DNA from: an uncultured Flavobacteriaceae bacterium
GTDB lineage: Bacteria > Bacteroidota > Bacteroidia > Flavobacteriales > Flavobacteriaceae
Reading direction: 5' to 3'
NCBI GenBank assembly: GCA_947495135.1
Contig: CANLXN010000009.1
Coordinates: 116,165-180,164 of the forward strand
DNA: 64,000 bases
Of the stretch, positions 43,465-58,587 are shown one piece after another. Within the stretch, counting starts at the first letter, position 1. Every line of letters begins with the position of its first letter. Both the position numbers and the translations under genes were made by a program. The notes under the pieces were generated by a model. That model was not told the DNA's origin. It saw nothing but the letters and a program-made list of their open reading frames with translations, and ran no database searches.

Positions 43465-43471
43465 GCAGCGT

Positions 43472-43870: not shown

Positions 43871-43881
43871 GGGTTTATTGA

Positions 43882-44703
43882 TTAGTAACGTTTAATTTTT
43901 TTTGAATCACGTTTTTGGCGTCGTAAATGCAAGCTTACTCTTGCCATGGTTGCGTCTTTCATTTTTTGAAGGTAGTCAATTCCTGGAATTGCGAAAAACC
44001 GAAAAACCAGTGTTTCCCCTACAAAAACTTCGATTCGAGTGTTTCGACCTACGCCTAACACTTCTTTAATTTTTATAATTTCTTCGGAATTGATATTGTT
44101 CTGTAGGTATTGACTATAGAACATCTGATAAAAATCTTTTCCTGGTTTCGTTTTTGTTTCTTCCAAAACAATGCCTGTAAGAACGATACCATCACCCCCA
44201 GCGCTTGCAACATCCTGACTGTCAATTTGTTTAGGCTGATTATCCGATTGATCATCTTGGACTACGCTAACAGCATCTGGATCGTTGTAAGATGGATTAT
44301 CGTTAATAACTACTCGATCCTTTCCTACCACTTGTTCATCTTGATTGTATATCAGTAATAGGATAATTATTCGATCCTGTGTATCTAGATTGATAGTCGT
44401 TTTGGCGAGATTGGCTTTTTCACCCGTGGCAAGTACAACCCTGCCAGATTGCTCATTCTTCGATTTATTTTTTGTTTCGGAATTTGTTCTGAAAACGGTA
44501 AATACATATTTCAGACTTTGACTCAATTGAGACTTATTGAAAGCCGATGTGGTAATTTCAATGAATTCGTAATTGGAGTCTAAATTGATTTTTGCCTCCA
44601 CCTCTGTATTATAGATCTGTGCATTCATGTTCTCAGTGGTTAAAGAGAGAAAAACGCAGGCTAATAAAAAGTAGGTAAAAGGGGTAGGCTTGCTAAAAAG
44701 CAT
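43882..44703 (-). CDS. csgE: CsgE-family protein with extra N-terminal CsgH-like beta domain
   Basis: C-terminal GIVLEETKTKPGKDFYQMFY is the CsgE motif; position between csgB and csgF. Confidence 0.78.
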   Translation of the reverse strand: MLFSKPTPFTYFLLACVFLSLTTENMNAQIYNTEVEAKINLDSNYEFIEITTSAFNKSQLSQSLKYVFTVFRTNSETKNKSKNEQSGRVVLATGEKANLAKTTINLDTQDRIIILLLIYNQDEQVVGKDRVVINDNPSYNDPDAVSVVQDDQSDNQPKQIDSQDVASAGGDGIVLTGIVLEETKTKPGKDFYQMFYSQYLQNNINSEEIIKIKEVLGVGRNTRIEVFVGETLVFRFFAIPGIDYLQKMKDATMARVSLHLRRQKRDSKKIKRY

Positions 44704-44708
44704 GAGGT

Positions 44709-45215
44709 TTAGAAATTTCGAACAATAACACTTTGCCCTTCACCTTGCATGGTGACTTTTAATTTTTCTGAAATACCATTTCCGCCATACCAGGTAAGGT
44801 TTTGGTTATTTCCATTTTGGATAATTTCTCCTTGAAGCGATTCAACATTTAACCCTGAGAAGTTAAGAACGCTGTTGTTATCTCCATTTTGAAGTATTTT
44901 TTCTTGAATAGTATTACCTCGAAGGTTTACATAAACATCATTATCGTCCCCTATTTGAACGAATTGAACATCACTTCTCTGAGACTGAACCCTTGCAGTG
45001 ATATCATTATTATTACCCACTTGTTGGATAAAAACAGAATTTCCATTAGAAGAAGTGGACATTTGTGAAGAATTCTGTGAAGACAAAAAGTTATTTTCAG
45101 AATTCTCTTGCTTGAAAGCATCAAGCGCTGTAGTAGTATCGTTATATGTTTGTCCAAAGCTAAGACTTGCTGTAAAAAGCATGGCTAGCATCAGGTATAT
45201 TTGTTTAGTCTTCAT
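44709..45215 (-). CDS. csgB: Minor curlin / nucleator-like (CsgB-like)
   Basis: 168 aa; signal peptide; degenerate QxGxxN repeats (QQVGNNN, VQIGDDN, LQNGDNN, IQNGNNQ) with basic residues; heads the secretion operon. Confidence 0.75.
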   Translation of the reverse strand: MKTKQIYLMLAMLFTASLSFGQTYNDTTTALDAFKQENSENNFLSSQNSSQMSTSSNGNSVFIQQVGNNNDITARVQSQRSDVQFVQIGDDNDVYVNLRGNTIQEKILQNGDNNSVLNFSGLNVESLQGEIIQNGNNQNLTWYGGNGISEKLKVTMQGEGQSVIVRNF

Positions 45216-45278
45216 AGCAGTTGTTTTAAGGGATTAAGATACGTAATTTCTGCGAAACTCAGCACTTAAAATATTCAA

Positions 45279-45293: not shown

Positions 45294-45402
45294 ATAATTG
45301 ATATTTGTACTTGAAATTTTATTTAAAAACAAGTATAAGAGCCAGGCAAAAACCCAACCCTTATACTGTTTTTCATAATCGTCAATTTAATTGATCTGAT
45401 TA

Positions 45403-46857
45403 TTAGTTGTTTTGTGTAACAGAAGAAACGTTTGAGTTTCCTACTTGGTTAACAGAACTCATGTGGTTGTTACCATTTTGGTCAACAGTACTTAAGTTGA
45501 AGTCTCCCATTTGGTTTACAACACTCATGTGCTGTAATCCATCTTGATCAACAGTACTAGAGTTAGCTAAACCATCTTGATCAACATCAGAGTTGTTCAT
45601 GTCTCCTGTTTGAGTAACTGCAGATCCATTAAGAGTTCCAATTTGATCAACATCAGAAACATTCATATCTCCTGTTTGAGTAGTGCTTGATCCGTTGCTG
45701 TTTCCAGTTTGAGAAACATCACTATCATTAGAATCACCAACTTGCTGAGTTACTTGCGTATTTAAGTCTCCGGTTTGAGCAACATCACTATCGTTTAGGT
45801 CCCCAATTTGAAGAACGAACGATCCATTGTTGTTTCCAGATTGAGCAACGAAAGACTCGTTATCATCTCCAAACTGACCTGTAGTAGAAGAGTTTCCGTT
45901 TCCAATTTGGTAGGTCTCAGCATCATTAGAGTTTCCTCCTTGTTGCGTTAACTGTCCATTGTTGTTTCCTTGCTGCTCAACATAACTAGCATTAGTATCC
46001 CCAGCTTGGATTACATCACTGTTGTTTTGGTTTCCAATTTGGAAAGTCAACGCATAGTTAGCGTTACCATCTTGGTCGATAGTACTGTTGTTATCGTTAC
46101 CGTACTGACCAGCACCGCCGTAGTTATCGTTACCGTCTTGGTCGATATCGGAAGTGTTGTTGTCACCAATTTGCTCGTTTTGACCCCAGTTGTTGTCTCC
46201 GTTTTGGTTTACATCACTATCGTTACCTACTCCAGTTTGCCAGATATCAGAGATGTTTCCATTTCCATTTTGATCTGCCAGTGCATCGTTCATGTTTCCG
46301 TTTTGCTCTACGTAAGAATCGTTGGCATCACCACCATATTGATTAACTAAAGAAACGTTATCATTCCCAGACTGATATACTTCACTTACATGGAAACCAT
46401 TTCCAGATCCGTATCCTTGGAATACATCACTATCGTTGTTGTTACCGTCTTGAGAAACAATGCTTGAGCTACTGAAGCCCCACTGATCTGTATAAGCGTC
46501 GTTATCAACACCAACTTGGTCTACATCACTAATATTATCATCTCCATCCTGCCAGATGAAGTTATTGTTAGTTGCACCACTTTGGTTTACAGAAGAAATG
46601 TTTCTATCTGAAAGCCCATCTCCACCTGGTCCACCACCAGTTTGTCTTGTCTCATTAGTGTTAGAAACACCATTTTGATCTACGGTTGAATCATTGTCGT
46701 CTCCAACAGAATCAACATCCGAAGAATTTGTTAGCCCAGTTTGAACCACTGAAGATGAATTACCACTTCCAATTTGATCCACTGTACTGACATTAAATTG
46801 CCCGAACATTACAGAGCCACACATTAGGGCCGCTGCGGTTAAAAATACATTTTTCAT
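45403..46857 (-). CDS. csgA: Long major curlin 1 (484 aa)
   Basis: Signal peptide, then continuous 11-residue QxGxxNxSxVx half-repeats ending QNN. Confidence 0.9.
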   Translation of the reverse strand: MKNVFLTAAALMCGSVMFGQFNVSTVDQIGSGNSSSVVQTGLTNSSDVDSVGDDNDSTVDQNGVSNTNETRQTGGGPGGDGLSDRNISSVNQSGATNNNFIWQDGDDNISDVDQVGVDNDAYTDQWGFSSSSIVSQDGNNNDSDVFQGYGSGNGFHVSEVYQSGNDNVSLVNQYGGDANDSYVEQNGNMNDALADQNGNGNISDIWQTGVGNDSDVNQNGDNNWGQNEQIGDNNTSDIDQDGNDNYGGAGQYGNDNNSTIDQDGNANYALTFQIGNQNNSDVIQAGDTNASYVEQQGNNNGQLTQQGGNSNDAETYQIGNGNSSTTGQFGDDNESFVAQSGNNNGSFVLQIGDLNDSDVAQTGDLNTQVTQQVGDSNDSDVSQTGNSNGSSTTQTGDMNVSDVDQIGTLNGSAVTQTGDMNNSDVDQDGLANSSTVDQDGLQHMSVVNQMGDFNLSTVDQNGNNHMSSVNQVGNSNVSSVTQNN

Positions 46858-47030
46858 AATCTTAAAAGTATTAAATTTGGTTATTAAAATTGTTTTCAGG
46901 TATCTATGTTTAGTTGAACATATTCATTTATAAAAACGCGTCTAACACAGGGCTTTCTAAAAAAAGCACTACGAGCTTGCCGAGTTTAATTTTGAGGAGA
47001 GGGATTGGTAAGCTTAATATTTAGTTATAG

Positions 47031-47216
47031 TTGCACTTCAAATATCTAACAAATATCAATACGTTCTATACGTATAAACACTTACAAGCTAACACCTTAA
47101 CATTATTTGTAGGAAAAAACCTTGTTTTTAAAATATGGTATATCGACAGAGTGAAATCAAACATCGATGAACTACCAAAATGTATACAAATTACACATAA
47201 GTTAAAATTTTGTTAA
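47031..47216 (-). promoter_or_regulatory. Curlin promoter module, copy 1
   Basis: Ungapped match to 50132-50317; TCGAY repeats at 47143/47164; GTTAA repeats at 47201/47212. Confidence 0.7.
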
Positions 47217-47634
47217 AATACTTCATCCTTTACGTCTATTCAATTTATGCTAGATGAACGCTCAAATTTCACCGATGAATTACTATTCTAAGCCTTCTCT
47301 TTTTCCTACAAAAACAACTGTCATGGCATTTCACATTAAAAACGATTTAGAAAGAACATATGCCGGTAGGCTTAAATATTAATCCATCCATAAAATATAC
47401 CTTCAAATGTGTTCTTCAATTAGACGATCCTGCTCTTTTTGCCAACCTACCCCTGTGGTTATAACGAGAAAAAGTTAGATGGAAAATTATATTCTATCAT
47501 TTAGCACATTGGCCCAATTCCGAAAATTTCAGCAATGAGTAGCGTTCAAAACTATTGAAATTAATCTCCAGGCATATGCTTACTCCAACAATAATACTGA
47601 AGCATGCCAGCAAACAAGGCGTCAAAAAATGCAA

Positions 47635-47667
47635 TAAAAAAGAGCGACCCAATTATGAGTCGCTCTT
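47635..47667 (-). terminator. Terminator of curlin 2
   Basis: Minus strand GAGCGACTCATAATTGGGTCGCTCTTTTTT. Confidence 0.8.
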
Positions 47668-47716
47668 CATACTGATATTTAGAAAGTTTCAACTAAACTT
47701 TCCAAAGAATAATTAA

Positions 47717-49930
47717 TTAGTTGTTCTGAGTTACAGAAGAAGTATTGCTGTTTCCAATCTGGTTAACCGTACTTGTGTGGTTGTTTCCATTTTGATCAAC
47801 AGTACTTAAGTTGAAATCTCCAACTTGGTTAACAGTACTCATGTGCTGTAATCCGTCTTGGTCAACAGTGCTTGAGTTAGCCAAACCGTTTTGGTCTACA
47901 TCACTCATGTTCATATCTCCTGTTTGAGTAACTGCAGATCCGTTAAGAGTTCCAGTTTGGTCAACATCAGAAATGTTCATGTCTCCTGTTTGAGTAGTAC
48001 TAGATCCGTTGCTGTTTCCGTTTTGAGAAACATCGCTATCGTTAGAGTTACCTACTTGCTGAGTTACTTGCGTATTCAAATCTCCGTTTTGGTCAACATC
48101 GCTATCGTTTAAATCTCCAATTTGAAGAACGAAAGATCCGTTGTTGTTTCCAAACTGTCCAACGTTAGAGCTGTTATTGTCTCCAAACTGTCCAGTAGTA
48201 GATCCGTTTCCGTTTCCGTACTGCTGTACAAAGCTAAAGTTAGTATCTCCATCCTGCACAGTAAGGTTACCATTGCTGTTTCCGAACTGATCTACTAAAC
48301 TAAAGTTAGAGTCACCATCTTGATCTACTTGAGAATTGTTAGTTAATCCAATTTGAGAAACTAAAGATTCGTTAAAGTCACCATCTTGATCAACATCACT
48401 GTTGTTAGCGGTACCGTCTTGTCCAACAAAAGAATCGTTGTTGTCTCCAGTCTGGTCTACATCACTTACGTGATCGTCTCCACCAGCTCCAAAGTATCCC
48501 TGTAATACTTCAGAGTTGTTGTTATCTCCAATAGAAGTAACTGAACTACTATTATTGTTTCCAATTTGCTCTACGTTAGAAGTGTTCATGTTTCCGAACT
48601 GTTGAACAACACTACCGTTGTCGTTTCCTAATTGGTTTACAGCAGAAACGTTGTTGTCTCCTGTGTATCCTTGTTGTACAAAAGAGTTGTTGTTATCTCC
48701 AGTAGAAGTTACGTCAGACTCGTTAGTTACACCAATTTGTCCTACAAAAGAGCTGTTACCGTTTCCAACCTGATCTACGTCAGAATCGTTAGCAGTACCG
48801 TCTTGTCCAACAAAAGAATCGTTGTTGTCTCCAGTCTGGTCTACATCACTTACGTGATCGTCTCCACTTACGAAGTATCCTTGAAGAACTTCAGAAGTAT
48901 TGCTGTTTCCATTTTGGTCAACAGTACTCATGTTGTTATTTCCAATTTGCTCTACAATAGAACCGTTACTATCTCCAAACTGCCCAACATAACTATCGTT
49001 AGTCATTCCTGTTTGTAGAACAGTAGATCCATTGCTGTTTCCAAACTGATCTGTCCAGCTACTGTTAGAATCTCCGTTTTGGTCTGTACTAGCAGAGTTA
49101 GAATCTCCGAAAGACTGAACTACAGAAAAGTTGCTGTTTCCATCTTGGTCTGTGTCATTCGTATTTAAGTTTCCTACTTGAGCAACATACGAATAGTTAC
49201 TGTCTCCAGTCTGGTCTACAGTACTAGTATTGCTGTCTCCAGTGAATCCCTGATAAGACTGAGAAGTGTTAGCATCACCATTTTGGTTGATAGTACTTGT
49301 GTTAGCATTACCATCTTGCCACATTTGAGAGGAATTACTATCTCCTGTTTGATCTGTAAAGCTAGAGTTAGAATTTCCTGTTTGATCCTCATCAGAAACG
49401 TTTAAATCTCCATTTTGAGTTACAAAAGAAACATTCCCATTCCCTAATTGGTCTTGCGTAGAATCATTCATGTCTCCTACTTGAGCGTTGTAACCAATGT
49501 TACCATCACCTGTTTGAGTGATTGCAGAATTATTGTCATCAGACCCATCAGTATCTCCGTACTGATCGATATGACCAACGTTTGCATTACCAGATTGAGT
49601 TACAGAACCAACGTTGTTATCATTAACAGAAGCCCCACCACCAAAACCTTGGTGTACGTCTGCTTCGTTATTATTTCCAGTTTGAAGAACATCAGCTTCG
49701 TTTCCGTTACCTAATTGGTCAACATCGTTATTGTTAGCGTCTCCTAACTGATCTACGTCAGAATCGTTGTTGTCTCCAACTTGGTCTACCGTAGAAACGT
49801 TTACCGCACCGGTCTGGTCAACATCGGATGCATTACCGTTACCAGTCTGATTGACTGCGCTGTTGTTAAATTGTGCGAACGCCACTGCTCCAATGAACAT
49901 TGCCGCTACACTTAATACTACTTTTTTCAT
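47717..49930 (-). CDS. csgA: Long major curlin 2 (737 aa)
   Basis: MKKVVLSVAAMFIGAVAFA|QFN; about 60 half-repeats; ends QNN. Confidence 0.92.
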   Translation of the reverse strand: MKKVVLSVAAMFIGAVAFAQFNNSAVNQTGNGNASDVDQTGAVNVSTVDQVGDNNDSDVDQLGDANNNDVDQLGNGNEADVLQTGNNNEADVHQGFGGGASVNDNNVGSVTQSGNANVGHIDQYGDTDGSDDNNSAITQTGDGNIGYNAQVGDMNDSTQDQLGNGNVSFVTQNGDLNVSDEDQTGNSNSSFTDQTGDSNSSQMWQDGNANTSTINQNGDANTSQSYQGFTGDSNTSTVDQTGDSNYSYVAQVGNLNTNDTDQDGNSNFSVVQSFGDSNSASTDQNGDSNSSWTDQFGNSNGSTVLQTGMTNDSYVGQFGDSNGSIVEQIGNNNMSTVDQNGNSNTSEVLQGYFVSGDDHVSDVDQTGDNNDSFVGQDGTANDSDVDQVGNGNSSFVGQIGVTNESDVTSTGDNNNSFVQQGYTGDNNVSAVNQLGNDNGSVVQQFGNMNTSNVEQIGNNNSSSVTSIGDNNNSEVLQGYFGAGGDDHVSDVDQTGDNNDSFVGQDGTANNSDVDQDGDFNESLVSQIGLTNNSQVDQDGDSNFSLVDQFGNSNGNLTVQDGDTNFSFVQQYGNGNGSTTGQFGDNNSSNVGQFGNNNGSFVLQIGDLNDSDVDQNGDLNTQVTQQVGNSNDSDVSQNGNSNGSSTTQTGDMNISDVDQTGTLNGSAVTQTGDMNMSDVDQNGLANSSTVDQDGLQHMSTVNQVGDFNLSTVDQNGNNHTSTVNQIGNSNTSSVTQNN

Positions 49931-50131
49931 AATTTGTGAAGTTTTAAATAAAGGTTACTATACTAGTTGTATTGGTTTTAATTTATGTTTGATTTGTTCT
50001 TAAATTAACTTTTTCGCGCTTCTTTAACCCACATGTAAAACACCAGCGCTTATTTGTAGCTGATCGTTAAAACAGTGACTTTAAAAAAAATTGTTGAGGA
50101 GGAAGAGTCAGTTGTTTAAATTGGTAATTAG

Positions 50132-50317
50132 TTGCATGTCAAAGGTGCAACAAAAACTAATACCTGCTATACGTACAAACACTTAGTACCGTATTTATCG
50201 AATTGTTTTGAAGGAAAATTCCTCATTTGTTGTTTATGGTATTCCGACAGACTTCACAATTTGACCGACAAACTACGCGATTGTATACAAATTACACATT
50301 TGTTAAAATTTTGTTAA
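50132..50317 (-). promoter_or_regulatory. Curlin promoter module, copy 2
   Basis: CCGAC repeats at 50244/50265; TGTTAA at 50301/50312; minus-strand CACCTTTG (-7-like). Confidence 0.7.
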
Positions 50318-50520
50318 AAAACAAACGATAACGTTGTAGAAATAATCATCCTCGACAAACTGTAAAATATTATCGCTCAATAGAATGGCTAGCAAATTCT
50401 ATTCCTACAAATATTCATGAACGAAGCTTTTTTGGAGGTAAGCATATTTCAGAAAAAAATACTTCTTTGGTATTTATAAACATCAATCCTATTTTATGGG
50501 TCGATTGTTCAAATTGTTTA

Positions 50521-50556
50521 AAAAAAAAGCGCAAATCATTAAAGACTTACGCTTTT
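50521..50556 (-). terminator. Terminator of curlin 3
   Basis: AAAAGCG...CGCTTTT with poly-U on the minus strand. Confidence 0.65.
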
Positions 50557-50590
50557 ACCAACAAACTAACTTTTAGTGGCTACTAAACTC

Positions 50591-52237
50591 CTAGTTGTTT
50601 TGAGAAACATAAGAAGTGTTGTTATTTCCAACTTGGTTCACCGTACTTGAATGGTTGTCACCGTTTTGATCAACAGTACTTAAGTTATAGTCGCCCATTT
50701 GATAAACGGTGCTCATATGCTCTAAACCATCTTGATCTACTGTGCTTGAGTTAGCCATCCCATTTTGGTAAACGTCGCTAACATTCATATCGCCTGTTTG
50801 GGTAACTGCAGATGCATTAAGAGTTCCTGTTTGATCTACGTAAGATATATTCATATCTCCTGTTTGAGCGGTGCTCGATCCGTTGCTATTTCCGGTTTGG
50901 TCTACATAACTGGTATTCATGTAACCAACTTGCTCAGTAACTTGCGTGTTTAGGTCTCCGTATTGATCTACATAACTTGCGTTCATATCCCCAATTTGCA
51001 GAACGAAAGATCCGTTGTTGTTTCCATACTGCGCTACATTGGAAGTGTTTTCATATCCATACTGTCCTACACTAGATGCATTTCCATTACCAGTTTGGTT
51101 TACTTCGCTATAGTTAGCTTCACCTTCCTGATACGTTAAACTACCATTGTAATTTCCGGTTTGGTTGACATCGCTCAAGTTATAATCACCTTCTTGATCC
51201 ACCGTAGAGTAGTTGCCCTCTCCATTCTGCGCTACAGAAGACTCATTTGCTTCGCCATACTGATACACTTCAGATTCGTTGTAATCTCCATCTTGCGCTA
51301 CTAAAGAAACATTTTCATCTCCTGTTTGATCGGTATAGCTATCGTTATAGTTTCCAATTTGAGTAACGGCTGATGCATTATAATCGCCATACTGACTCGT
51401 ATAATTTGAGTTATAATCTCCTTCTTGCGCAACAATGCTGCTGTTATATGCTCCTTCCTGATAAACTTCAGAATCGTTAGCCTCTCCAACTTGCAGGACT
51501 AATGAAGCATTGTAATCACCATACTGATCTACTTCCGAGTAGTTATCCTCACCATCTTGACCAACTAAAGACAAGTTTTCATCCCCAGTTTGATACACAT
51601 TACTATCGTTATAGTTTCCAATTTGTACCACTGCAGACACATTGTAGTTTCCATCTTGTTCTGTATAACTTGTATTGTAATCTCCAGTCTGCGTTTCACT
51701 AGATGTATTGAAATCGCCGTACTGCTCTACTTCCGTCTCATTAGCGTTACCCAATTGATCTTGTGTAGAACTGTTGTAGTCACCTTCTTGGCTATTAAAT
51801 GCGTAATTATCATCTCCTGTTTGGTAAATGGCAGAATCGTTATAATCAGATCCATTGCTACCACCTTCTTGGTCAATGTGACCCTCATTGTCGTTTCCAG
51901 ATTGAGTTACTGAAGCAACGTTATAGTCGTTGTCGCCAGCACCAGAACCAAAACCTTGATGTATGTCTGCTTCGTTGTAATCTCCATTCTGAAGAACATC
52001 TGCTTCGTTACCATCACCGAGCTGATCTACATCACTGTTGTTATAGGCTCCAACCTGCTCTACATTAGCGTAGTTGTAATCTCCATATTGGTCTACAGTA
52101 GAACCATTATATGCTCCCACCTGATATACGTCTGAAACATTTTCGTTTCCAGTTTGTTGAACTGCGTTGTCATTAAATTGGGCGAAAGCTACTGCGCCGA
52201 TTAGCATTGCTGCTACACTTAAAATTCTCTTTTTCAT
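50591..52237 (-). CDS. csgA: Long major curlin 3, Tyr/Glu-enriched (548 aa)
   Basis: Same signal peptide and repeat frame; QYGDYN-type repeats; about 49 Tyr by manual count. Confidence 0.92.
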   Translation of the reverse strand: MKKRILSVAAMLIGAVAFAQFNDNAVQQTGNENVSDVYQVGAYNGSTVDQYGDYNYANVEQVGAYNNSDVDQLGDGNEADVLQNGDYNEADIHQGFGSGAGDNDYNVASVTQSGNDNEGHIDQEGGSNGSDYNDSAIYQTGDDNYAFNSQEGDYNSSTQDQLGNANETEVEQYGDFNTSSETQTGDYNTSYTEQDGNYNVSAVVQIGNYNDSNVYQTGDENLSLVGQDGEDNYSEVDQYGDYNASLVLQVGEANDSEVYQEGAYNSSIVAQEGDYNSNYTSQYGDYNASAVTQIGNYNDSYTDQTGDENVSLVAQDGDYNESEVYQYGEANESSVAQNGEGNYSTVDQEGDYNLSDVNQTGNYNGSLTYQEGEANYSEVNQTGNGNASSVGQYGYENTSNVAQYGNNNGSFVLQIGDMNASYVDQYGDLNTQVTEQVGYMNTSYVDQTGNSNGSSTAQTGDMNISYVDQTGTLNASAVTQTGDMNVSDVYQNGMANSSTVDQDGLEHMSTVYQMGDYNLSTVDQNGDNHSSTVNQVGNNNTSYVSQNN

Positions 52238-52409
52238 AAATGAGGTTTTAAAATTAAATTGATTAAAAAATATACTTAGTGTACTAATTCAATAAGTTAT
52301 GAGTGTATGTACCACTCTGGAGAATCCATCAGATTTGACTCTGAAAGACATTCCATTGCTTTTAGGATTTAAAATTTCGAGGAGAATTGGTATTCGTTGT
52401 AATCCTTTG

Positions 52410-52594
52410 CTGCGGTTCAAAGATGCTGCAAAAACTAATTCCCAGAATACGCGTATACACTTACCTACCGCGATTTTAACAATTTTTGTAGGAGAATACG
52501 GTGATTTTATTTTTCAACCCATCGACAGAAACGAATAAAAATCGGCCAAAAGCGCAAATTTGCAATTTTTGGCTAAATGTTAAAATTATGTAAA
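52410..52594 (-). promoter_or_regulatory. Curlin promoter module, copy 3
   Basis: TTCAAAGATG (minus CATCTTTG), ATACGCGTATACACTTA, TTGTAGGAG, ATCGACAGA, TGTTAA/TGTAAA at 52578/52589. Confidence 0.65.
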
Positions 52595-52981
52595 TTACCT
52601 ACAGTATCATTTTAAAAATGTAAAACCAACGTTTAAAAACTAAATTAATCGACAAAAAACACAGCCAACGCTTGCCTTTTTCTTAGAAAAATGACTAAAA
52701 AATCAATTATTACAAATGAAAGAAATAAAACGAATCGAAACCAGGTTCTTCTTGACGCTAAAAAAGCTCATTAATAATAGAAATGGAATGGAACATATTG
52801 GAACTATTATTACAACCGCTCCAAATCTGATTGTAAGACCAGGGTCCCTTTAGAGTTAGGATACGTTTCAACTTTTAGAATAGATTAGTTTCTTCAGTAT
52901 AACAGCTACTGGCTCATGGTTGGATCGATAGAGAAAGACCCTAAAGAAGTAAGAATCGAAAAATACGCAATATGATTGCAT

Positions 52982-53013
52982 AAAAAAAGAGCGACTCATT
53001 GCGAGTCGCTCTT
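52982..53013 (-). terminator. Terminator of curlin 4
   Basis: AAAAAAAGAGCGACTC-ATTGC-GAGTCGCTCTT; near-identical to the curlin 2 terminator. Confidence 0.85.
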
Positions 53014-53057
53014 GATACTGAAAACTAGAAAGCCTAAAACTTTCTCTAGAATAATTA

Positions 53058-55160
53058 TTAGTTGTTCTGAGTTACAGAAGAACTGTTGTTGTTTCCAATT
53101 TGGTTAACCGTACTTGTGTGGTTGTTACCGTTTTGGTCAACTGTACTTAAGTTGAAGTCTCCAACTTGGCTTACCGTACTCATGTGTTGGAATCCATCCT
53201 GATCTACTGTACTTGAGTTAGCCAAACCATCTTGGTCAACATCACTCATGTTCATGTCTCCTGTTTGAGTCACTGCAGATCCGTTAAGAGTTCCAGTTTG
53301 ATCAACATCAGATATGTTCATGTCTCCTACTTGAGTAGTGCTAGATCCGTTGCTGTTTCCGTTTTGAGAAACATCACTATCGTTAGAATCACCAATTTGC
53401 TGAGTTACTTGCGCATTTAAATCTCCAGTTTGAGCAACATCACTATCGTTTAAATCTCCAATTTGAAGAACGAAAGAGCTATTGTTGTTTCCAACCTGAT
53501 CAACATTAGAACCGTTATTGTTTCCAAATTGTCCTGTAGAAGAACCGTTACCGTTTCCAGTTTGGTTGACTAAGCTAAAGTTAGTATCTCCTTGTTGCAT
53601 AGTAAGGTTTCCGTTAGCGTTACCAATTTGAGCAACTGAACTATTGTTACCGTTTCCAGTTTGGTCTACATCACTGTTGTTAAAGTCTCCATCTTGCTCA
53701 ACATAAGAAATGTTATCATCTCCAAGCTGATCTACAGTAGAAGTGTTGTCGTTAGAATCAAAAGTCTGATAAACCTCAGAACGGTTACGATCTCCCGTTT
53801 GTTGAACAGAACTGTTGTTGTTGTTTCCAATGTATCCTTGGATAGCATAAGAGTAGTTATTGTCTCCAGTTTGATCTACATCAGAAACATTGTTGTCTCC
53901 TCTCTGCCCTAAAATAGCAGTGTTAGCATTTCCTGTTTGATCGGTATCGCTAATGTTGCTATCTCCAAATTGCCAAGTAAGACCGTAGTTATTGTCTCCT
54001 GTTTGAGTGATATCAGATTCTCCATTCGTAGATTCAAATCCAGCACCTAATATTGCGTTTCCTTGATCTACATCCACAACGTTTCCATTACCAAACTGAT
54101 CTACATCAGAATCGTTATCGTCTCCGTATGCTTCAACATCTGCAGTGTTATTGTCTCCTTGTTGGTTGATATCAGAATTGTTATCAAAACCACGTTGAGC
54201 CATTAAGCTTGTGTTATTGTCTCCCGTTTGATCTGTATCACTATCGTTGTCATCACCTTCTTGATACTCTGTAGAAACATTGCTGTTTCCTTCTTGATCT
54301 ACATTAGAATCGTTATCGTCTCCAATTTGATCTGTATCTGCAGCATTGAAGTTACCGTGCTGATCGATGTCAGAATCGTTTCCGTTTCCTAATTGATCAA
54401 TACTAGCAACGTTGTCGCTAGAAGTCCTTCCAGAACCGTCTGAGAAACGCTGATCGATATGACCATCGTTATCATCTCCTAATTGATATACAGTTGCATC
54501 GTTGTTGTTGTTTCCAGTTGGGCTAGAAAAACCACCTTGGTGTACATCTGAAGAGTTGTCATTTCCAAACTGCTCTACGAATGAGTTGTTCCCATCACCG
54601 TCTTGAATAACATCACTTACATTATCGTCTCCTTGCTGATCTACCCATGAACTATTTGCGTTCCCATCTTGATCTACATCAGATTCGTTTGTAACACCAA
54701 TTTGACCTACGAAAGAGAAGTTTCCGTCTCCGTCTTGATCTACATCACTGTCGTTAGCTGTACCATCCTGTCCTACGAAAGAAAAGTTACCATCGCCTGT
54801 TTGATCTACATCACTTACGTGATCGTTTCCACCTGCGAAATATCCTTGAAGTACTTCCGAAGAGTTGTTATCTCCGGTAGAAGTAACATCAGATTGGTTG
54901 TTTTCTCCAAATTGCTCTACAGTAGAAGTGTTAGCGTCTCCAACCTGATCTACATCAGAATCGTTAGATACACCAACTTGGTCTACGTCAGAACCGTTGT
55001 TGTCTCCTGTTTGATCAACAGTAGAAACGTTCGTCATTCCTGTTTGATCTACATCAGATCCATTACCTGAACCAGTCTGATTGACTGTGCTCACGTTAAA
55101 TTGTGCAAATGCTGTTGCTCCAATGAACAATGCCGCTGCACTTAATACTACTTTTTTCAT
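53058..55160 (-). CDS. csgA: Long major curlin 4 (700 aa)
   Basis: True start MKKVVLSAAALFIGATAFA at 55160; repeats end QNN. Confidence 0.92.
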   Translation of the reverse strand: MKKVVLSAAALFIGATAFAQFNVSTVNQTGSGNGSDVDQTGMTNVSTVDQTGDNNGSDVDQVGVSNDSDVDQVGDANTSTVEQFGENNQSDVTSTGDNNSSEVLQGYFAGGNDHVSDVDQTGDGNFSFVGQDGTANDSDVDQDGDGNFSFVGQIGVTNESDVDQDGNANSSWVDQQGDDNVSDVIQDGDGNNSFVEQFGNDNSSDVHQGGFSSPTGNNNNDATVYQLGDDNDGHIDQRFSDGSGRTSSDNVASIDQLGNGNDSDIDQHGNFNAADTDQIGDDNDSNVDQEGNSNVSTEYQEGDDNDSDTDQTGDNNTSLMAQRGFDNNSDINQQGDNNTADVEAYGDDNDSDVDQFGNGNVVDVDQGNAILGAGFESTNGESDITQTGDNNYGLTWQFGDSNISDTDQTGNANTAILGQRGDNNVSDVDQTGDNNYSYAIQGYIGNNNNSSVQQTGDRNRSEVYQTFDSNDNTSTVDQLGDDNISYVEQDGDFNNSDVDQTGNGNNSSVAQIGNANGNLTMQQGDTNFSLVNQTGNGNGSSTGQFGNNNGSNVDQVGNNNSSFVLQIGDLNDSDVAQTGDLNAQVTQQIGDSNDSDVSQNGNSNGSSTTQVGDMNISDVDQTGTLNGSAVTQTGDMNMSDVDQDGLANSSTVDQDGFQHMSTVSQVGDFNLSTVDQNGNNHTSTVNQIGNNNSSSVTQNN

Positions 55161-55392
55161 AATGTGAAGTTTTTTAAAAAAGGTTACTATACTAGTTGTA
55201 TGTAGCTGAAAAAGTTGTGAATTTTTCAGCATTTCAAATATTAGGATAAATATTTATTCCTACATACGTAGTAACACGTACTGTAGGAATACCCAATAAA
55301 TTAAATAGGAAATTACTGATAAAAAAGTCAATTTAATCGGTATAATTATATTTTTAATGGCTCAAAAACACAATTTCCTACAAAACCCTATA

Positions 55393-55409
55393 TGTTAAAT
55401 TTATGTTAA
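55393..55409 (-). promoter_or_regulatory. TGTTAA-N5-TGTTAA direct repeat upstream of curlin 4
   Basis: TGTTAAATTTATGTTAA; same 11-bp period as the other copies. Confidence 0.6.
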
Positions 55410-55706
55410 ATTAAAATTTGTTCATGTAGTCAACATTTTACCATCGACATAAGACATTCTTTTTCGCTCAAATGCATAATGTTTTCTTCTGAAATTTGCG
55501 AAAAACTCAAAAAAGAGCATCGAAAACATCAAATTCGAAATATTTCCTACAAAAAAATTAAATTTTACGAATGAAGACCTCCACTTTCGCATCCCTATAA
55601 ATGCGGGATACGCCATTCAAAAATGACATAACAAGGAAAATCTGTCACTACTCGCCCTACAAATCCGTAAAGAGTTGATATACAGAAATTTAAAAAAAGT
55701 AAACCA

Positions 55707-56065
55707 CCAGTTATTCGGTACTATGGACGAAGTATTGCCAACTCCTAGCTGTTATACATTACTAGAATGACTATTTGGAGTTTGAGATATCTCAGTGGTA
55801 TTTAAATGACCGCTTTGAAGTACATCCGCCTCATTAGCGCCACCCAAATCATCGGTATCTGCAGAATTATCATCCCCTAATTGACTAAATGAGAGCTATT
55901 AAAATCTCCTTGCTGATCTAGGATAGTGTACTTGCTCGCTCCTGTCTAATCTCTATCTGAAACATTAGTATCTCCAGGTTAAGTGGTCACTCGAGCATTG
56001 AGTTGAGCAAACAATGTTCCTCCAAATAATAAGAACAAGGGTGTACATATGGAAATCTTATGCAT
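55707..56065 (-). pseudogene. Degraded short curlin pseudogene
   Basis: MHKISICTPLFLLFGGTLFA|Q signal, then TT*PGDTNVSDRD*TG...DQQGDFNSS, a frameshift, QLGDDNSADTDDLGGANEADVLQSG...NV*QLGVGNTSSIVPNN. Two in-frame stops fall at repeat Gln positions. Confidence 0.8.
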
Positions 56066-56400
56066 AATGGCAGGTATTTTGGTTGAAGTATTTAACATCC
56101 AATTGTACTGCCATTTGATATATCCGCAAAGTTTCCAAGTGTTTTTACTGAAATGATCGACATTCAAAAAAAGGGATTCTCTCTTTTTTAACCGAAATTT
56201 TCGAAATCCAGTGATGGTTCTAAAAAAATACTTTCTGACCGACCCATGTGTAGAAAGAAATTCGTACCCAACCAATATAAACAGAGGAAAATTGAATTGT
56301 GAAAATTTCCGAAGAAATACGTTTTCAAATTCACCAACTTATATCCAAATTATCAATCGTCCATGGTATCCCCCCATCGTATATCACCAACTACTTTCAT

Positions 56401-56433
56401 AAAAAAAGCGGAAACCATTTCTGATTTCCGCCT
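56401..56433 (-). terminator. Terminator of curlin 5
   Basis: AAAAAAAGCGGAAA...TTTCCGCCTT. Confidence 0.7.
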
Positions 56434-56465
56434 TCTCAAAGTAAATAATATATTGGTAATATATC

Positions 56466-58388
56466 TTAGTTGTTTTGAGTAACTGTAGAACCATTCATGT
56501 TTCCAATCTGGTTTACTGTACTAGTGTGGTTGTTACCATTTTGACTTACATCACTGTTGTTCATGTTACCATCTTGTAACACAGTACTCATGTGAGAAAG
56601 ACCAGTTTGTCCAACAACACTTGTGTTATCGTCACCCATTTGATCTACATCTGAAGTATTCATATCTCCAGTCTGAACTACGTCTGAATCATTTCTGTCT
56701 CCAGTTTGGTCTACATCTGAAACATTCAGGTCTCCAGCTTGTTCAACATAACTTTCGTTATCGTCACCCATTTGATCTACCGTAGAAAGGTTGTCGTTAG
56801 ATCCAAAAGTTTGGTATACATAAGACTCGTTTCCGTCCCCTGTTTGCTGAACTGAACTATTGTTGTTATTTCCAACATATCCTTGAATAGCATAAGAGAA
56901 GTTATCGTCCCCTGTTTGATCCACATCAGAAACGTTGTTGTCTCCTCTTTGACCCAAGATAGCACTGTTACCATCCCCTGTTTGGTCGGTATCGCTAATG
57001 TTGCTATCTCCAAATTGCCATGTAAGACCGTAGTTGTTATCTCCTGTTTGAGTGATATCAGACTCACCATTAGTCGATTCAAATCCAGCTCCTAATCCTG
57101 AATTTCCTTGATCAACGTCTACTTCATTGTTGTCACCAATTTGATCTACATCAGAATTGTTATCGTCTCCAAATGCTTCAACATTAGAAATGTTGCTATC
57201 TCCTGTTTGATCTACTCTAGAGAAGTTTGCATCTCCTTGTTGGATCATAGTACTGGCGTTCATATCTCCAGTTTGCCAAGTGTAACTGTTGTTCAGGTCA
57301 CCTATTTGATCTTCATCTGAAGTGTTAGAATCACCAAATTGGTTGTTACGGCTAAAGTTGTTGTCTCCTGTTTGGTCAATTGTAGACATGTTCATGTCTC
57401 CAGACTGTTGGATCGTACCACTGTTAGAATCTCCTGTTTGAGTTACAGCTCCGTTGTTATCATCTGCACCGTCTGCAGAGAATAATTGGTAAACGTTACC
57501 ACTGTTTCCATTACCTGTTTGAGTAATAGCAGAAACATTGTTGTCGTTGTCCTCAGTAGAAACACCTGTTAAACCTTGCCAAGATACAGCAACGTTGTTA
57601 TCACCTGTTTGCATAACATCAGACTCATTTCCGTTACCTAATTGCTCAGTTAATGAAGTGTTAGAGTTTCCGTTTTGGTCAACATCAGAGTTGTTAGAGT
57701 CTCCTCTTACAATAAGATCTGCGCTATTAGAATCACCAAATTGATCTACCGTACTTACGTTAGAGTTTCCAGTTTGAGACATTGAATTAGCGTTGAAATC
57801 ACCAGACTGGCTTGTAAAGCTAGAGTTAGAGTCACCTATTTGATCCTCATCTGAAGCGTTGTTATCTCCATTTTGAATAACGAAAGAGGTGTTTAAGTTT
57901 CCAACTTGGTCTTGAGTAGAACCATTCATGTCACCTACTTGAGAATTATACCCAAAGTTATCATCTCCTGTTTGGTTAATTGCAGAGTTGTTATCGTCAG
58001 ACCCATCTGTATCACCGTACTGGTCGATGTGACCTGTGTTTCCATTCCCAGATTGAGTTACAGAACCTACGTTGTTGTCATTAATTGAAGCACCAGTACC
58101 AAAACCTTGGTGTACGTCTGCTTCGTTGTTATCTCCTGTTTGAAGAACATCGGCTTCGTTTCCGTTACCTAATTGATCTACGTCGTTGTTGTTAGAGACA
58201 CCTACCTGATCAACATCAGAATCGTTGCTGTCTCCTACTTGATCAACTGTAGAAGCGTTCGTCGCTCCTGTTTGGTCAACATCAGATCCGTTTCCGTTTC
58301 CTGTTTGATTGACAGTACTCACGTTAAATTGTGCAAAAGCCACTGCTCCAATGAACATAGCTGCTACACTTAATACTACTTTTTTCAT
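56466..58388 (-). CDS. csgA: Long major curlin 5 (640 aa)
   Basis: Same signal peptide as curlin 2; repeats end QNN. Confidence 0.92.
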   Translation of the reverse strand: MKKVVLSVAAMFIGAVAFAQFNVSTVNQTGNGNGSDVDQTGATNASTVDQVGDSNDSDVDQVGVSNNNDVDQLGNGNEADVLQTGDNNEADVHQGFGTGASINDNNVGSVTQSGNGNTGHIDQYGDTDGSDDNNSAINQTGDDNFGYNSQVGDMNGSTQDQVGNLNTSFVIQNGDNNASDEDQIGDSNSSFTSQSGDFNANSMSQTGNSNVSTVDQFGDSNSADLIVRGDSNNSDVDQNGNSNTSLTEQLGNGNESDVMQTGDNNVAVSWQGLTGVSTEDNDNNVSAITQTGNGNSGNVYQLFSADGADDNNGAVTQTGDSNSGTIQQSGDMNMSTIDQTGDNNFSRNNQFGDSNTSDEDQIGDLNNSYTWQTGDMNASTMIQQGDANFSRVDQTGDSNISNVEAFGDDNNSDVDQIGDNNEVDVDQGNSGLGAGFESTNGESDITQTGDNNYGLTWQFGDSNISDTDQTGDGNSAILGQRGDNNVSDVDQTGDDNFSYAIQGYVGNNNNSSVQQTGDGNESYVYQTFGSNDNLSTVDQMGDDNESYVEQAGDLNVSDVDQTGDRNDSDVVQTGDMNTSDVDQMGDDNTSVVGQTGLSHMSTVLQDGNMNNSDVSQNGNNHTSTVNQIGNMNGSTVTQNN

Positions 58389-58587
58389 AATTGTGAAGTT
58401 GTTAATAAAGGTTATAATACTTGTTAGTTGAACAGATAAGTGAGGTTACAATTATCTGTTGGTCAAATATCATAAGAATTATCAATTTTTAGGTACGTAC
58501 TAATACGTAGCCACCCATAAAAGAGGGTAAAACCGTAAGAAAAATGGTAGGAAAAATGCTTAATCAACGATTAATTATAAATTAGAA

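What the first reader, a model, noticed from the sequence alone, without database searches (positions are those of the whole stretch)
45403..58388. Curlin paralogs are mosaics of shared blocks with a common C-terminal cap
Curlins 1-4 share a closely similar last about 120 aa (NN[GS]SFVLQIGD...GLANSSTVDQDGLQHMS...QNN), near-identical in DNA among 1, 2 and 4. Curlins 2, 3 and 5 share the N-terminal EADV.QGFG...GSDD block. Curlins 4 and 5 share the GAGFESTNGESDITQTGDNNYGLTWQFG...YQTF.SNDN block. The SEVLQGYF...DHVSDVDQTG block occurs twice in curlin 2 and once in curlin 4. This indicates block shuffling or gene conversion, with loop-bearing modules exchanged while the fibre-stacking end stays compatible.
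Basis: seen in the sequence. Interest (0 to 1): 0.62.

Follow-up and report, generated by a model that had tools for sequence, protein, structure and literature searches.

The report
Mosaic curli fibre gene array
Five neighbouring genes for curli (bacterial amyloid fibre) subunits in a marine flavobacterium are patchworks: three anciently separate gene lineages now carry one shared tail end, which shows recombination among the copies but is an ordinary way for tandem repeat-gene families to evolve.

Summary
The block sharing is real. Five tandem curlin genes (484-737 aa, minus strand) lie upstream of csgB-like, csgE, csgF and csgG, and each is an array of 11-aa units xSxVxQxGxxN. All four block statements hold.

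One statement is overstated. The shared tail is 85-90% identical in DNA among curlins 1, 2 and 4, not near-identical. The longest exact match between any two copies is 35 nt.

Uniform divergence is refuted:
- Trees of residues 23-180 put the genes in three old lineages that also occur in other genera. Curlins 2, 3 and 5 form one, curlin 4 a second and curlin 1 a third.
- In the last 143 aa, curlins 1-4 form one clade.
- AU tests reject each grouping on the other region.
- Synonymous divergence runs from about 0.5 (tail) through about 0.9 (N-terminal block of curlins 2/5; GAGFES block of curlins 4/5) to saturation.

The loop-bearing modules are old arc-insertion cassettes found in other genera. 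They are as conserved between genera as between the copies here.

Best reading: homologous recombination (gene conversion or unequal crossing-over) among tandem paralogs, old rather than ongoing. The idea that ends are kept compatible for co-assembly is untested, and several relatives have paralogs with dissimilar ends. Multi-copy, multi-repeat curlins are already described. Interest is modest.

The parts
45403..46857 (-). curlin 1 (c1, 484 aa, 40 Q.G units). N-terminal core of the W1 lineage plus the shared C-terminal cap.
   Evidence: Pfam Curlin_rpt E 1.3e-45. Unit map. PDB sequence hits 8C50 E 3.8e-36 and 8ENQ.
45901..46857 (-). c1 residues 1-319: old lineage-specific core, including the RQTGGGPGGDGLSD loop.
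   Evidence: Residues 23-176 are 68% identical to G396_13322 (another genus) against 47-52% to own paralogs. Clade with the G396 curlins 100/98*. Same-codon rate against c2/c4 is 0.43-0.50, equal to chance at 0.49.
45406..45900 (-). c1 residues 320-484: shared C-terminal cap.
   Evidence: 85-88% aa to c2/c4 against 58% to G396_13322. dS 0.49-0.71. Same-codon rate 0.72-0.79.
47717..49930 (-). curlin 2 (c2, 737 aa, 64 units): N+X block, private stretch, two Z modules, cap.
49271..49930 (-). c2 residues 1-220: N-terminal block with the X loops (QGFG..., GHIDQYGDTDGSDD), shared with c5 and, to residue 166, with c3.
   Evidence: c2/c5 gap-free, 79.9% nt. Over residues 1-176: 86% aa, dS 0.89, against 60-65% aa and saturated dS to G013_11607 and G391_18969.
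48344..49042 (-). c2 residues 297-529: tandem Z modules (SEVLQGYF..DDHVSDVDQTG).
   Evidence: Internal duplication at 74% nt. Matches c4 65-162 at 74.7% nt. Z copies are 72-79% aa to each other within and between genomes. dS to c4 is 1.1-1.4.
47720..48343 (-). c2 residues 530-737: shared cap, in its longest form with c4.
   Evidence: c2/c4 625 nt gap-free at 84.8%. The window self-BLAST match continues about 87 nt past the stop.
50591..52237 (-). curlin 3 (c3, 548 aa, 46 units): N+X block, Tyr/Glu-rich private core, older copy of the cap.
   Evidence: 71-76% nt to the others at both ends, dS 1.1 to saturated. 49 Tyr.
53058..55160 (-). curlin 4 (c4, 700 aa from MKKVVLS, 55 units): N, Z, private stretch with a QGGF loop, Y, cap.
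   Evidence: Best collinear partner outside the genome is G013_9956.
54636..55010 (-). c4 residues 51-175: Z module, at the same positions as in G013_9956.
   Evidence: Residues 45-180 are 77% aa to G013_9956 against 67-71% to the c2 Z copies. Windows map 45->45, 56->56, 67->67, 78->78.
53652..54161 (-). c4 residues 334-503: Y module (NVEAYGDDN, GAGFESTNG loop, YAIQGY, YQTFDSNDN), shared with c5.
   Evidence: 80.9% nt gap-free to c5. dS 0.91 to c5 against saturated to G282_3725, although aa identity is 79-84% in both cases.
53061..53684 (-). c4 residues 493-700: shared cap.
   Evidence: Residues 551-700 are 87-91% aa to c1/c2 against 51-56% to G013_9956 and G282_3725. c1-c4 form a clade at 98/96*.
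56466..58388 (-). curlin 5 (c5, 640 aa, 49 units): N+X, X2, Y, and its own divergent C-terminus.
   Evidence: AF2 model pLDDT 81.2, an all-beta solenoid.
57234..57707 (-). c5 residues 228-385: X2 module (WQGLTG..., YQLFSADGADD).
   Evidence: Residues 243-385 are 73% aa to G391_8615 against 56% or less to own paralogs.
56697..57206 (-). c5 residues 395-564: Y module.
   Evidence: Over residues 397-550: 84% aa to c4, 81% to G282_3725 and 73% to G396_10153.
56469..56741 (-). c5 residues 550-640: C-terminus outside the c1-c4 cap clade.
   Evidence: 66-70% aa to all partners. 67-70% nt to c1/c2/c4, which is background level. Lies outside the starred cap clade.
47630..47716 (-). 3' flank of c2 with a terminator hairpin, homologous to the 3' flank of c4.
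   Evidence: Self-BLAST 47630-48341 against 52977-53682. Hairpin at 47668-47639.
52977..53057 (-). 3' flank of c4 with a terminator hairpin.
   Evidence: Hairpin at 53013-52987.
55161..55201 (-). About 39 nt upstream of the c4 start, 86-92% alike upstream of c2 (49931-49972) and c5 (58389-58425).
55710..56065 (-). Decayed sixth short curlin in the c5-c4 spacer: signal peptide, repeats, stop codons and a frameshift.
   Evidence: Curlin_rpt hit with an internal TAA. Three-frame (minus-strand) translation. Coordinates.
42046..45215 (-). Downstream secretion and nucleation genes: csgB-like 44709-45215, csgE-like 43882-44703, csgF 43472-43870, csgG with an OMP barrel 42046-43503.
   Evidence: Pfam CsgE, CsgF, CsgG and OMP_b-brl. 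The csgB-like ORF has no family hit and is named from its position and Q.G..N repeats only.

Best explanation
This is a curli (type VIII secretion) locus of a marine Flavobacteriaceae genome with an expanded tandem array of CsgA-type fibre subunits.

The genes descend from at least three old curlin lineages, each marked by its own loop-bearing (arc-insertion) modules:
- an X lineage (c2, c3, c5);
- a Z/Y lineage (c4);
- a W1 lineage (c1).

The copies lie head to tail and consist of very similar 11-aa repeat units. Homologous recombination between misaligned or neighbouring copies (interlocus gene conversion, unequal crossing-over, or both) has therefore repeatedly replaced parts of one gene with parts of another.

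Shown:
- One C-terminal cap of about 143-208 aa now sits on c1, c2, c4 and, in older form, c3.
- c4 carries the signal peptide and first two repeats of c5/c2.
- c2 and c5 share residues 1-220.
- c4 and c5 share the Y module.
- Block ages differ. dS is about 0.5-0.7 for the cap, about 0.9 for N+X and Y, 1.1-1.4 for Z, and saturated for the private cores.
- The events are old. No near-identical tracts remain.

Inferred:
- The array grew from 2-3 genes, as in same-genus relatives, to five plus one pseudogene by such recombination.
- The proteins form beta-solenoid subunits in which the irregular modules are surface loops.
- Shared ends may allow mixed fibres and use of one CsgG/E/F/B machinery. 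This last point is speculative.
For: - Locus identity: Curlin_rpt, CsgE, CsgF and CsgG hits. PDB sequence hits to curlin structures 8C50 and 8ENQ. All Curlin_rpt matches in the genome lie in this locus.
- Block map: collinear gap-free DNA blocks at 75-85% against an off-diagonal background of 67-72%.
- Phylogenetic conflict, N-part (residues 23-180): c2/c3/c5 group with G013_11607 and G391_18969 (97/98*). c4 groups with G013_9956 (88/86). c1 groups with the G396 curlins (100/98*). AU rejects a c1-c4 clade (p 1e-62).
- Phylogenetic conflict, C-part (last 143 aa): c1-c4 form one clade (98/96*). AU rejects c1+G396 (p 3e-5) and c4+G013_9956 (p 2e-67). The last-74-aa tree gives the same clade at 96/95*.
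- Crossing identities: c1 23-176 is 68% to G396_13322 against 47% to c2, while c1 320-484 is 58% against 88%.
- Synonymous signal: the same-codon rate at identical residues is 0.43-0.50 (chance 0.49) in the c1 N-part against 0.68-0.79 in the cap (Fisher p 0.001-0.007).
- Block dS values differ.
- Shared flanks: 87 nt 3' of c2/c4, and 39 nt 5' of c2/c4/c5.
- Relatives: 1-3 shorter curlins in the same synteny. The modules X, X2, Z, Y and W1 occur in other genera in other combinations.
- Structure: c5 AF2 model, pLDDT 81, solenoid with non-strand loops at 95-103, 125-130, 273-281, 302-308 and 428-439, exactly at the irregular units.
- Assembly check: independent contigs span junctions.
Against: - No tract longer than 35 nt is identical between paralogs. 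Recent or continuing conversion is not shown, and conversion cannot be told from unequal crossing-over.
- With only the five paralogs, short N and C alignments do not resolve conflicting topologies (AU p 0.1-0.5). The conflict appears only once outgroup genes are added.
- The clades tested were named after I had seen the identity painting.
- The C-terminal alignment to outgroups is ungapped from the end and may be out of register where outgroups carry irregular units. This inflates some distances.
- The nearest genomes are distant (CsgG 54-63% identical). Orthology of c1, c4 and c5 cores to single outgroup genes rests on module content and position.
- Some block sharing (Z, and the amino-acid level of Y) is explained by conservation alone. 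Identity is as high between genera as within the genome.
Confidence: 0.8

Rival explanations
1. Differential loss without exchange. One or two long ancestral curlins carried all modules. Each copy then lost different modules by repeat-mediated deletion, and the similar ends reflect only purifying selection.
For: Deletions and expansions of 11-aa units are easy in such arrays. G391_6364 in another genus carries X, Z, a QGGF loop and part of Y in one gene. Z and Y are about as conserved between genera as within this genome at the amino-acid level.
Against: - It cannot explain why the N-part of c1, c4 and c2/c3/c5 falls in three separate cross-genus clades while their caps form one within-genome clade.
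- It cannot explain why synonymous sites in the cap are far less diverged than in the N-part of the same gene pairs.
- Paralogs in G003, G005, G012, G013 and G282 have ends only 43-68% alike, so selection does not force near-identity.
Confidence: 0.1
2. Horizontal import. Some modules or whole curlin genes came from other Flavobacteriaceae genera, for example by transformation in mixed biofilms, and recombined into the resident array.
For: Two between-genus block comparisons are not saturated at synonymous sites, unlike the rest. c5 X2 against G391_8615 has dS 1.06 and same-codon rate 0.63. c2 Z2 against the second Z of G013_9956 has dS 1.12 and same-codon rate 0.67. The Y module of G282, from a different genus, is 78-81% identical, whereas same-genus G013 reaches only 55-57%.
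Against: The samples are about 100 codons each among about a dozen comparisons. Shared codon bias can give the same effect. Base composition across the array is flat at 36-40% GC. No mobile-element genes lie in the spacers, and the spacers are unique in the genome.
Confidence: 0.07
3. Artefact. The mosaic comes from mis-assembly of similar repeats, or the similarities are chance matches of low-complexity N/D/S/G/Q-rich sequence.
For: Draft genome of 45 contigs. Highly repetitive, compositionally biased proteins.
Against: - Paralogs share no exact match longer than 35 nt, too short to mislead an assembler.
- Contigs from independent metagenomes and a metatranscriptome match at 97-100% across block junctions.
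- Blocks are long, gap-free and far above the in-register background.
Confidence: 0.02

Closest known systems
Multi-copy, many-repeat CsgA homologues outside Enterobacteria (Dueholm et al. 2012, PMC3521004; Sleutel et al. 2023, PMC10192328)
   Same: - Curlin repeats and linkage to csgG/E/F.
- Several csgA-like genes per genome (up to 6, and up to 30, reported).
- Repeat numbers of 4-62.
- A 'centrosymmetric' class in which motif a equals motif b, seen here as the 11-aa period.
- A 'degenerate' class with arc insertions, exemplified by the flavobacterium Sediminicola.
- Dueholm et al. already state that CsgA homologues underwent many recombination events, some inside repeats.
   Different: Within the parts I read, those papers do not dissect one array. 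They do not show that distinct old curlin lineages in one genome were given a common C-terminal cap and N-terminus, or that named loop cassettes recur across genera in different combinations.
Concerted evolution of tandem or dispersed bacterial paralogs by interlocus gene conversion, e.g. tufA/tufB in Salmonella (my own knowledge)
   Same: Segments of paralogs are more alike within a genome than to orthologs elsewhere. Trees conflict between segments. Synonymous divergence is reduced in the converted segment.
   Different: Here conversion is partial (ends only) and old (dS about 0.5), with no near-identical tracts. The substrate is an internally repetitive gene, so register shifts and unequal crossing-over are equally likely.
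Spider silk (spidroin) gene families: conserved terminal domains flanking variable repeat modules (my own knowledge)
   Same: Fibre subunit paralogs whose assembly-relevant ends are kept alike while repetitive cores are reshuffled by recombination.
   Different: There is no homology. The curlin ends are ordinary repeats of the same solenoid, not separate globular domains. A functional need for matching ends is not shown here.
Pontibacter korlensis R15.5 curlin, PDB 8C50, and E. coli CsgA, PDB 8ENQ
   Same: Sequence-level homology (E 3.8e-36 and 4e-3). The predicted two-sheet beta-solenoid is of the same kind.
   Different: These proteins are two to five times longer and carry loop insertions. 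A Foldseek search of the 640-aa model against the PDB gave no significant match.

Membership tests
Curli major subunit family (CsgA-like, Pfam PF07012 Curlin_rpt) | Tandem curlin repeats with the conserved S/N-x-Q-x-G-x-x-N kernel | tested here: met
   13-25 Curlin_rpt stretches per protein, E 1e-45 to 2e-79. 40-64 Q.G units of 11 aa per protein.
Curli major subunit family (CsgA-like, Pfam PF07012 Curlin_rpt) | Sec signal peptide and export through a linked CsgG/CsgE/CsgF machinery | tested here: met
   N-terminal MKKVVLSVAAMFIGAVAFAQ-type leader, modelled as helix 2-17. csgE, csgF and csgG lie directly downstream on the same strand. Export itself is not testable here.
Curli major subunit family (CsgA-like, Pfam PF07012 Curlin_rpt) | Two-sheet beta-solenoid fold | tested here: met
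   AF2 model of c5: pLDDT 81.2, pTM 0.72, 52 strands and no helices after the leader. Sequence hits to solved curlins 8C50 and 8ENQ. The Foldseek PDB search was uninformative.
Curli major subunit family (CsgA-like, Pfam PF07012 Curlin_rpt) | Forms extracellular amyloid fibres nucleated by CsgB | not testable with these tools
   Only indirect: RNA-run contigs on c1, c2 and c5. The csgB-like ORF has no family hit.
Concerted evolution / interlocus gene conversion among paralogs | A segment is more alike between paralogs of one genome than between orthologs of different genomes | tested here: met
   Cap: 85-91% within the genome against 51-58% to the partners of the N-part lineages. c4 residues 1-44: 89% to c5 against 61% to G013_9956.
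Concerted evolution / interlocus gene conversion among paralogs | Significant phylogenetic conflict between segments of the same genes | tested here: met
   AU tests p 1e-62, 3e-5 and 2e-67, with starred clades. The five-taxon test without outgroups was inconclusive.
Concerted evolution / interlocus gene conversion among paralogs | Lower synonymous divergence in the exchanged segment | tested here: met
   c1 against c2/c4: dS 1.3-1.9 in the N-part against 0.49-0.71 in the cap. Same-codon rate 0.43-0.50 against 0.68-0.79.
Concerted evolution / interlocus gene conversion among paralogs | Recent, near-identical conversion tracts (evidence that the process is ongoing) | tested here: not met
   The longest exact match between paralogs is 35 nt. 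The best 66-nt windows reach 94%.
Sleutel et al. curlin classes (centrosymmetric / degenerate with arc insertions) | Motif a and motif b near-identical (CS class); insertions after a motif (D class) | tested here: met
   Strict 11-aa period of xSxVxQxGxxN units. Irregular units of 13-31 aa map to non-strand loops in the model. The classes are as described in PMC10192328.

The most novel reading that the evidence does not exclude
The array may be a combinatorial cassette system. A small set of ancient loop cassettes (X, X2, Z, Y, W1) would be moved among curlin genes, within and perhaps between Flavobacteriaceae genera, by recombination in the uniform 11-aa repeat scaffold. The subunit ends would be co-homogenised within a genome so that all paralogs co-polymerise into one mixed fibre with a diversified, tunable surface.
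Probability: 0.2. Interest if true: 0.6.

Novelty: new member of a known kind. Interest (0 to 1): 0.36.

Why it matters
Curli are a model functional amyloid and a scaffold for engineered living materials. It is known that many bacteria carry several long CsgA homologues, but not why, or how such families diversify.

This array offers a worked example. Three old subunit lineages carry one common tail, and loop cassettes recur across genera. This gives a direct, testable question: do subunits with matched ends and different loop decorations co-assemble into mixed fibres? It also supplies natural swap points for engineering solenoid amyloids.

In evolutionary terms it is an expected behaviour of tandem repeat-gene families, so the surprise for a specialist is moderate.

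Tried and rejected
- Five-taxon DNA trees of the N-terminal 66 codons and C-terminal 91 codons with AU tests: unresolved (p 0.1-0.5). Only branch lengths differ.
- My first 'background' estimate with nominal 11-aa register was meaningless, because insertions break the register (mean 32% nt). I replaced it with best-window painting.
- Search of 5.8 billion proteins with c4: no close relative, best 31-36% identity. No strain comparison was possible that way.
- Rfam scan of 44000-59000: nothing near any gathering score. The weak hits sit on the terminator hairpins.
- BLAST of the spacers against the whole genome: they are unique, so not IS or MITE copies.
- Foldseek of the c5 model against the PDB: no significant match.
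- Short-sided 'joints' in metagenome contigs: disregarded as repeat or other-organism noise.
- The idea that the divergent c5 C-terminus is native to the G282_3725 lineage: not supported. Identity is 66%, against 66-70% to the own paralogs.
- The idea that terminal homogenisation is general in the family: rejected. It holds for this genome, for G396 and partly for G001, but not for G003, G005, G012, G013 or G282.
- Literature search for curli together with gene conversion, concerted evolution or mosaic paralogs: the ten top-ranked papers listed contained no curli paper.

Full report
**What is there.** The region lies in a curli locus on the minus strand. CsgG (with an added OMP beta-barrel domain), CsgF and a CsgE-like protein are identified by Pfam. 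A 168-aa csgB-like ORF lies upstream of them, followed by five large ORFs that each match Curlin_rpt with 13-25 stretches. I call these ORFs c1-c5:
- c1: 45403-46857
- c2: 47717-49930
- c3: 50591-52237
- c4: 53058-55160, taking the start homologous to the others
- c5: 56466-58388

Every Curlin_rpt match in the 4.29-Mb genome lies in this locus. c1 hits the solved curlins 8C50 (E 3.8e-36) and 8ENQ. Cutting the proteins at each Q.G shows a strict period of 11 residues, xSxVxQxGxxN, with 40-64 units per protein. A few longer, irregular units interrupt the arrays. This corresponds to the centrosymmetric curlin class with arc insertions described by Sleutel et al. (PMC10192328).

**Check of the observation.** Self-BLAST of the region and of the five coding sequences gives long, mostly gap-free, in-frame collinear blocks:

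| Pair | Residues | Length or note | nt identity |
|---|---|---|---|
| c2/c4 | C-terminal 208 aa | 625 nt | 84.8% |
| c1/c4 | C-terminal 207 aa | | 81.0% |
| c1/c2 | C-terminal | | 77.9% |
| c3 vs c1/c2/c4 | C-terminal | | 75-76% |
| c2/c5 | 1-220 | | 79.9% |
| c3 vs c2/c5 | 1-166 | | 71-73% |
| c4 vs c2/c5 | 1-71 | | 78-81% |
| c4 334-503 / c5 395-564 | GAGFES block | | 80.9% |
| c2 297-407 / c2 424-535 | internal duplication | | 74% |
| c2 310-407 / c4 65-162 | SEVLQGYF block | | 74.7% |

- The c2/c4 match in the window self-BLAST continues about 87 nt past the stop.
- Off-diagonal matches between unrelated repeat stretches reach 67-72% nt. Best 33-aa windows without a true homologue reach 45-64% aa, so the blocks stand well above background.
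- The statement that the tail is near-identical in DNA among curlins 1, 2 and 4 is not correct. Over the 143 codons from NNN[GS]SFVLQIGD to the stop, identity is 85.1-89.5%, and no exact match between any two paralogs exceeds 35 nt.
- The c5 C-terminus is at background level to the others: 67-70% nt and 66-70% aa.

**Is divergence uniform?** It is not.
- Nei-Gojobori estimates differ between blocks of the same gene pairs:
  - c1 against c4: dS 1.3 in the first 66 codons, 0.49 in the cap.
  - c1 against c2: 1.9 and 0.71.
  - c4 against c5: 0.78 (N), 0.91 (Y) and saturated (C).
- A measure free of amino-acid constraint is the share of identical residues encoded by the same codon. Chance is 0.49 given the family's codon usage. 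For c1 against c2/c4 it is 0.43-0.50 in the N-part and 0.68-0.79 in the cap (Fisher p 0.001-0.007).
- For c2/c5 the ends do not differ at synonymous sites (0.65 against 0.63). The divergent c5 tail is therefore mainly an amino-acid-level difference.
- With only five sequences, trees of the short end regions are unresolved.

**Relatives.**
- Same-genus genomes are distant, with CsgG 54-63% identical.
- They keep the synteny: glutamine-synthetase-like gene, curlins, csgB, csgE, csgF, csgG.
- They have only one to three curlins of 228-525 aa, separated by 30-100 nt. Here the spacers are 660-1305 nt.
- A family-wide search with the Y block found it in other genera, at 78% identity in G282 and 71% in G396. 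It also revealed arrays of up to at least twelve curlins in G391.
- The irregular modules are old and recur elsewhere:

| Module | Found in other genomes |
|---|---|
| X | At the same residues 89-133 in G013_11607 and G391_18969 |
| X2 | G391_8615 |
| Z | Twice in G013_9956, once in G391_6364 |
| Y | G282_3725 and G396_10153 |
| GGGPGGDGLSD loop of c1 | G396_13322 |

**Painting each gene against own paralogs and outgroup genes** (33-aa windows):
- c1 residues 23-176 are 68% identical to G396_13322 but 47-52% to own paralogs. c1 residues 320-484 are 85-88% to c2/c4 but 58% to G396_13322.
- c4 residues 45-180 are 77% to G013_9956, position for position, against 67-71% to c2. c4 residues 1-44 are 89% to c5 against 61% to G013_9956. 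c4 residues 551-700 are 87-91% to c1/c2 against 51-56% to outgroups.
- c5 residues 243-385 are 73% to G391_8615 against 56% or less to own paralogs.
- c2 and c5 are 86% alike over residues 1-176 against 60-65% to outgroups.
- Z and Y are about as conserved between genera as within this genome at the protein level. At synonymous sites, however, Y of c4/c5 (dS 0.91) and N+X of c2/c5 (dS 0.89) are clearly younger than the saturated between-genus comparisons.

**Formal test**.
- Tree of residues 23-180 with 16 outgroup curlins:
  - c2, c3 and c5 group with G013_11607 and G391_18969 (97/98*).
  - c4 groups with G013_9956 (88/86).
  - c1 groups with the three G396 curlins (100/98*).
  - The AU test rejects a c1-c4 clade (p 1e-62).
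- Tree of the last 143 residues:
  - c1-c4 form one clade (98/96*).
  - The AU test rejects c1 with its G396 partners (p 3e-5) and c4 with G013_9956 (p 2e-67).
- The last-74-residue tree, which contains only regular units, gives the same cap clade at 96/95*.
- Caveats: the clades were named after the painting had been seen, and the ungapped C-terminal alignment may be out of register for some outgroups.

**Not an artefact.** Exact matches of 35 nt or less cannot mislead an assembler. Short contigs from two metagenomes, one organism-labelled run and a metatranscriptome match the region at 97-100% and span several junctions: 45867-46175 across the c1 cap junction, 48248-48483 across the c2 Z-cap junction, and 54864-55297 across the c4 N-Z junction. 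The RNA contigs lie on c1, c2 and c5. This suggests transcription in nature, although DNA carry-over cannot be excluded.

**Structure.** An AF2 model of c5, built on an alignment of the five paralogs, has mean pLDDT 81.2 and pTM 0.72. It consists of 52 short strands after a helical leader. The only non-strand stretches are at 95-103, 125-130, 273-281, 302-308, 428-439 and around 504-508, which are exactly the irregular X, X2 and Y units. 'Loop-bearing modules' is therefore a fair description. Foldseek against the PDB found nothing significant.

**Explanation.**
- *Shown.* Three old curlin lineages in one array share one C-terminal cap. c4 also shares its leader and first repeats with c5/c2. 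Further blocks (N+X, Y) are shared pairwise at intermediate age.
- *Mechanism.* This requires homologous recombination between paralogs.
- *Supporting detail.* The shared short flanks, a terminator-bearing 87 nt after c2 and c4, about 65 nt after c3 and c5, and 39 nt before c2, c4 and c5, show that exchanged or duplicated tracts ran past the coding ends.
- *Unresolved.* Whether individual events were non-reciprocal conversions or unequal crossovers cannot be decided. Unequal crossovers would also explain growth from two or three genes to five plus a pseudogene. The flank pairing c5~c3 and c4~c2 hints at duplication of a two-gene unit at dS about 1.1-1.4, followed by later homogenisation. That is inference.
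- *Age.* With dS of 0.5 or more and no identical tracts, the process is old rather than demonstrably active.

The proposal is that ends are kept compatible for stacking. It fits what is known of E. coli CsgA, where the terminal repeats R1 and R5 drive nucleation and polymerisation (my own knowledge). It also fits the docking models of Sleutel et al.. It remains untested. Paralogs in G003, G005, G012, G013 and G282 have N- and C-terminal 44-residue ends only 43-68% alike, so near-identity of the ends is not required in this family.

**Comparison with the literature.** Dueholm et al. (PMC3521004) report Bacteroidetes curli systems, up to six csgA/B homologues, up to 22 repeats, and note recombination within repeats. 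Sleutel et al. report up to 30 copies per genome, 4-62 repeats and arc-insertion variants in a flavobacterium. The ten top-ranked results of a text search combining curli with gene conversion, concerted evolution or mosaic paralogs contained no curli paper. The locus is thus a new, well-resolved example within a known kind.

**Verdict.** Novelty: new member of a known kind. Interest 0.36.

Noticed in passing
window 55710-56065 (-): Decayed sixth short curlin in the c5-c4 spacer. It has a signal peptide (MHKISICTPLFLLFGGTLFAQ), curlin repeats broken by stop codons and one frameshift, and ends ...SSIVPNN.
   Followed up: partly
window 50591-52237 (-): c3 has 49 Tyr and 32 Glu. Every other paralog has 10 Tyr and 7-14 Glu. 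Its private core (167-379) is an internal duplication (185-265 against 273-353).
   Followed up: no
window 43882-44703 (-): The CsgE-like protein has a C-terminal CsgE domain (residues 175-267). Its N-terminal residues 51-125 give a weak, sub-threshold match to the CsgH chaperone model NF041112 (E 1.8e-5, 24.7 bits, cut-off 35).
   Followed up: no
window 42046-43503 (-) and 40520-42043 (-): CsgG carries an extra OMP beta-barrel domain (PF13505, residues 313-468). A 507-aa ORF follows csgG directly. An ORF of 505-507 aa sits in the same place after csgG in G396 and G391.
   Followed up: no
window 46858-47716, 49931-50590, 52238-53057, 55161-56465: The spacers between the curlin genes are 660-1305 nt, AT-rich (30-33% GC) and unique in the genome. 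Same-genus relatives have spacers of 30-100 nt. c1, c2, c3 and c4 are each followed by a terminator-like hairpin. A 194-nt stretch upstream of c1 (47028-47221) is 71% like one upstream of c2 (50129-50322).
   Followed up: partly
window 45867-46956, 48270-49168, 56711-56873: Contigs of an environmental RNA-seq run (X3) match c1, c2 and c5 at 99-100%, which suggests the genes are transcribed in nature. Marine and biofilm metagenomes hold a 97-100% identical strain.
   Followed up: partly
L019/L020 (G391:C4:308000-340000): Another genus of the family has at least twelve tandem curlin genes between the same flanking genes. One is an 823-aa member with long, unusual repeat units (...NRGGIDKATPLLYRSSGN...). 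One gene combines X, Z, QGGF and part of Y.
   Followed up: no
c5 243-385 vs G391_8615 420-562; c2 450-542 vs G013_9956 182-274: Two between-genus module comparisons are not saturated at synonymous sites (dS 1.06 and 1.12; same-codon rate 0.63 and 0.67 against chance 0.49). All the other between-genus comparisons are saturated. This may hint at horizontal movement of modules, or it may be noise.
   Followed up: no
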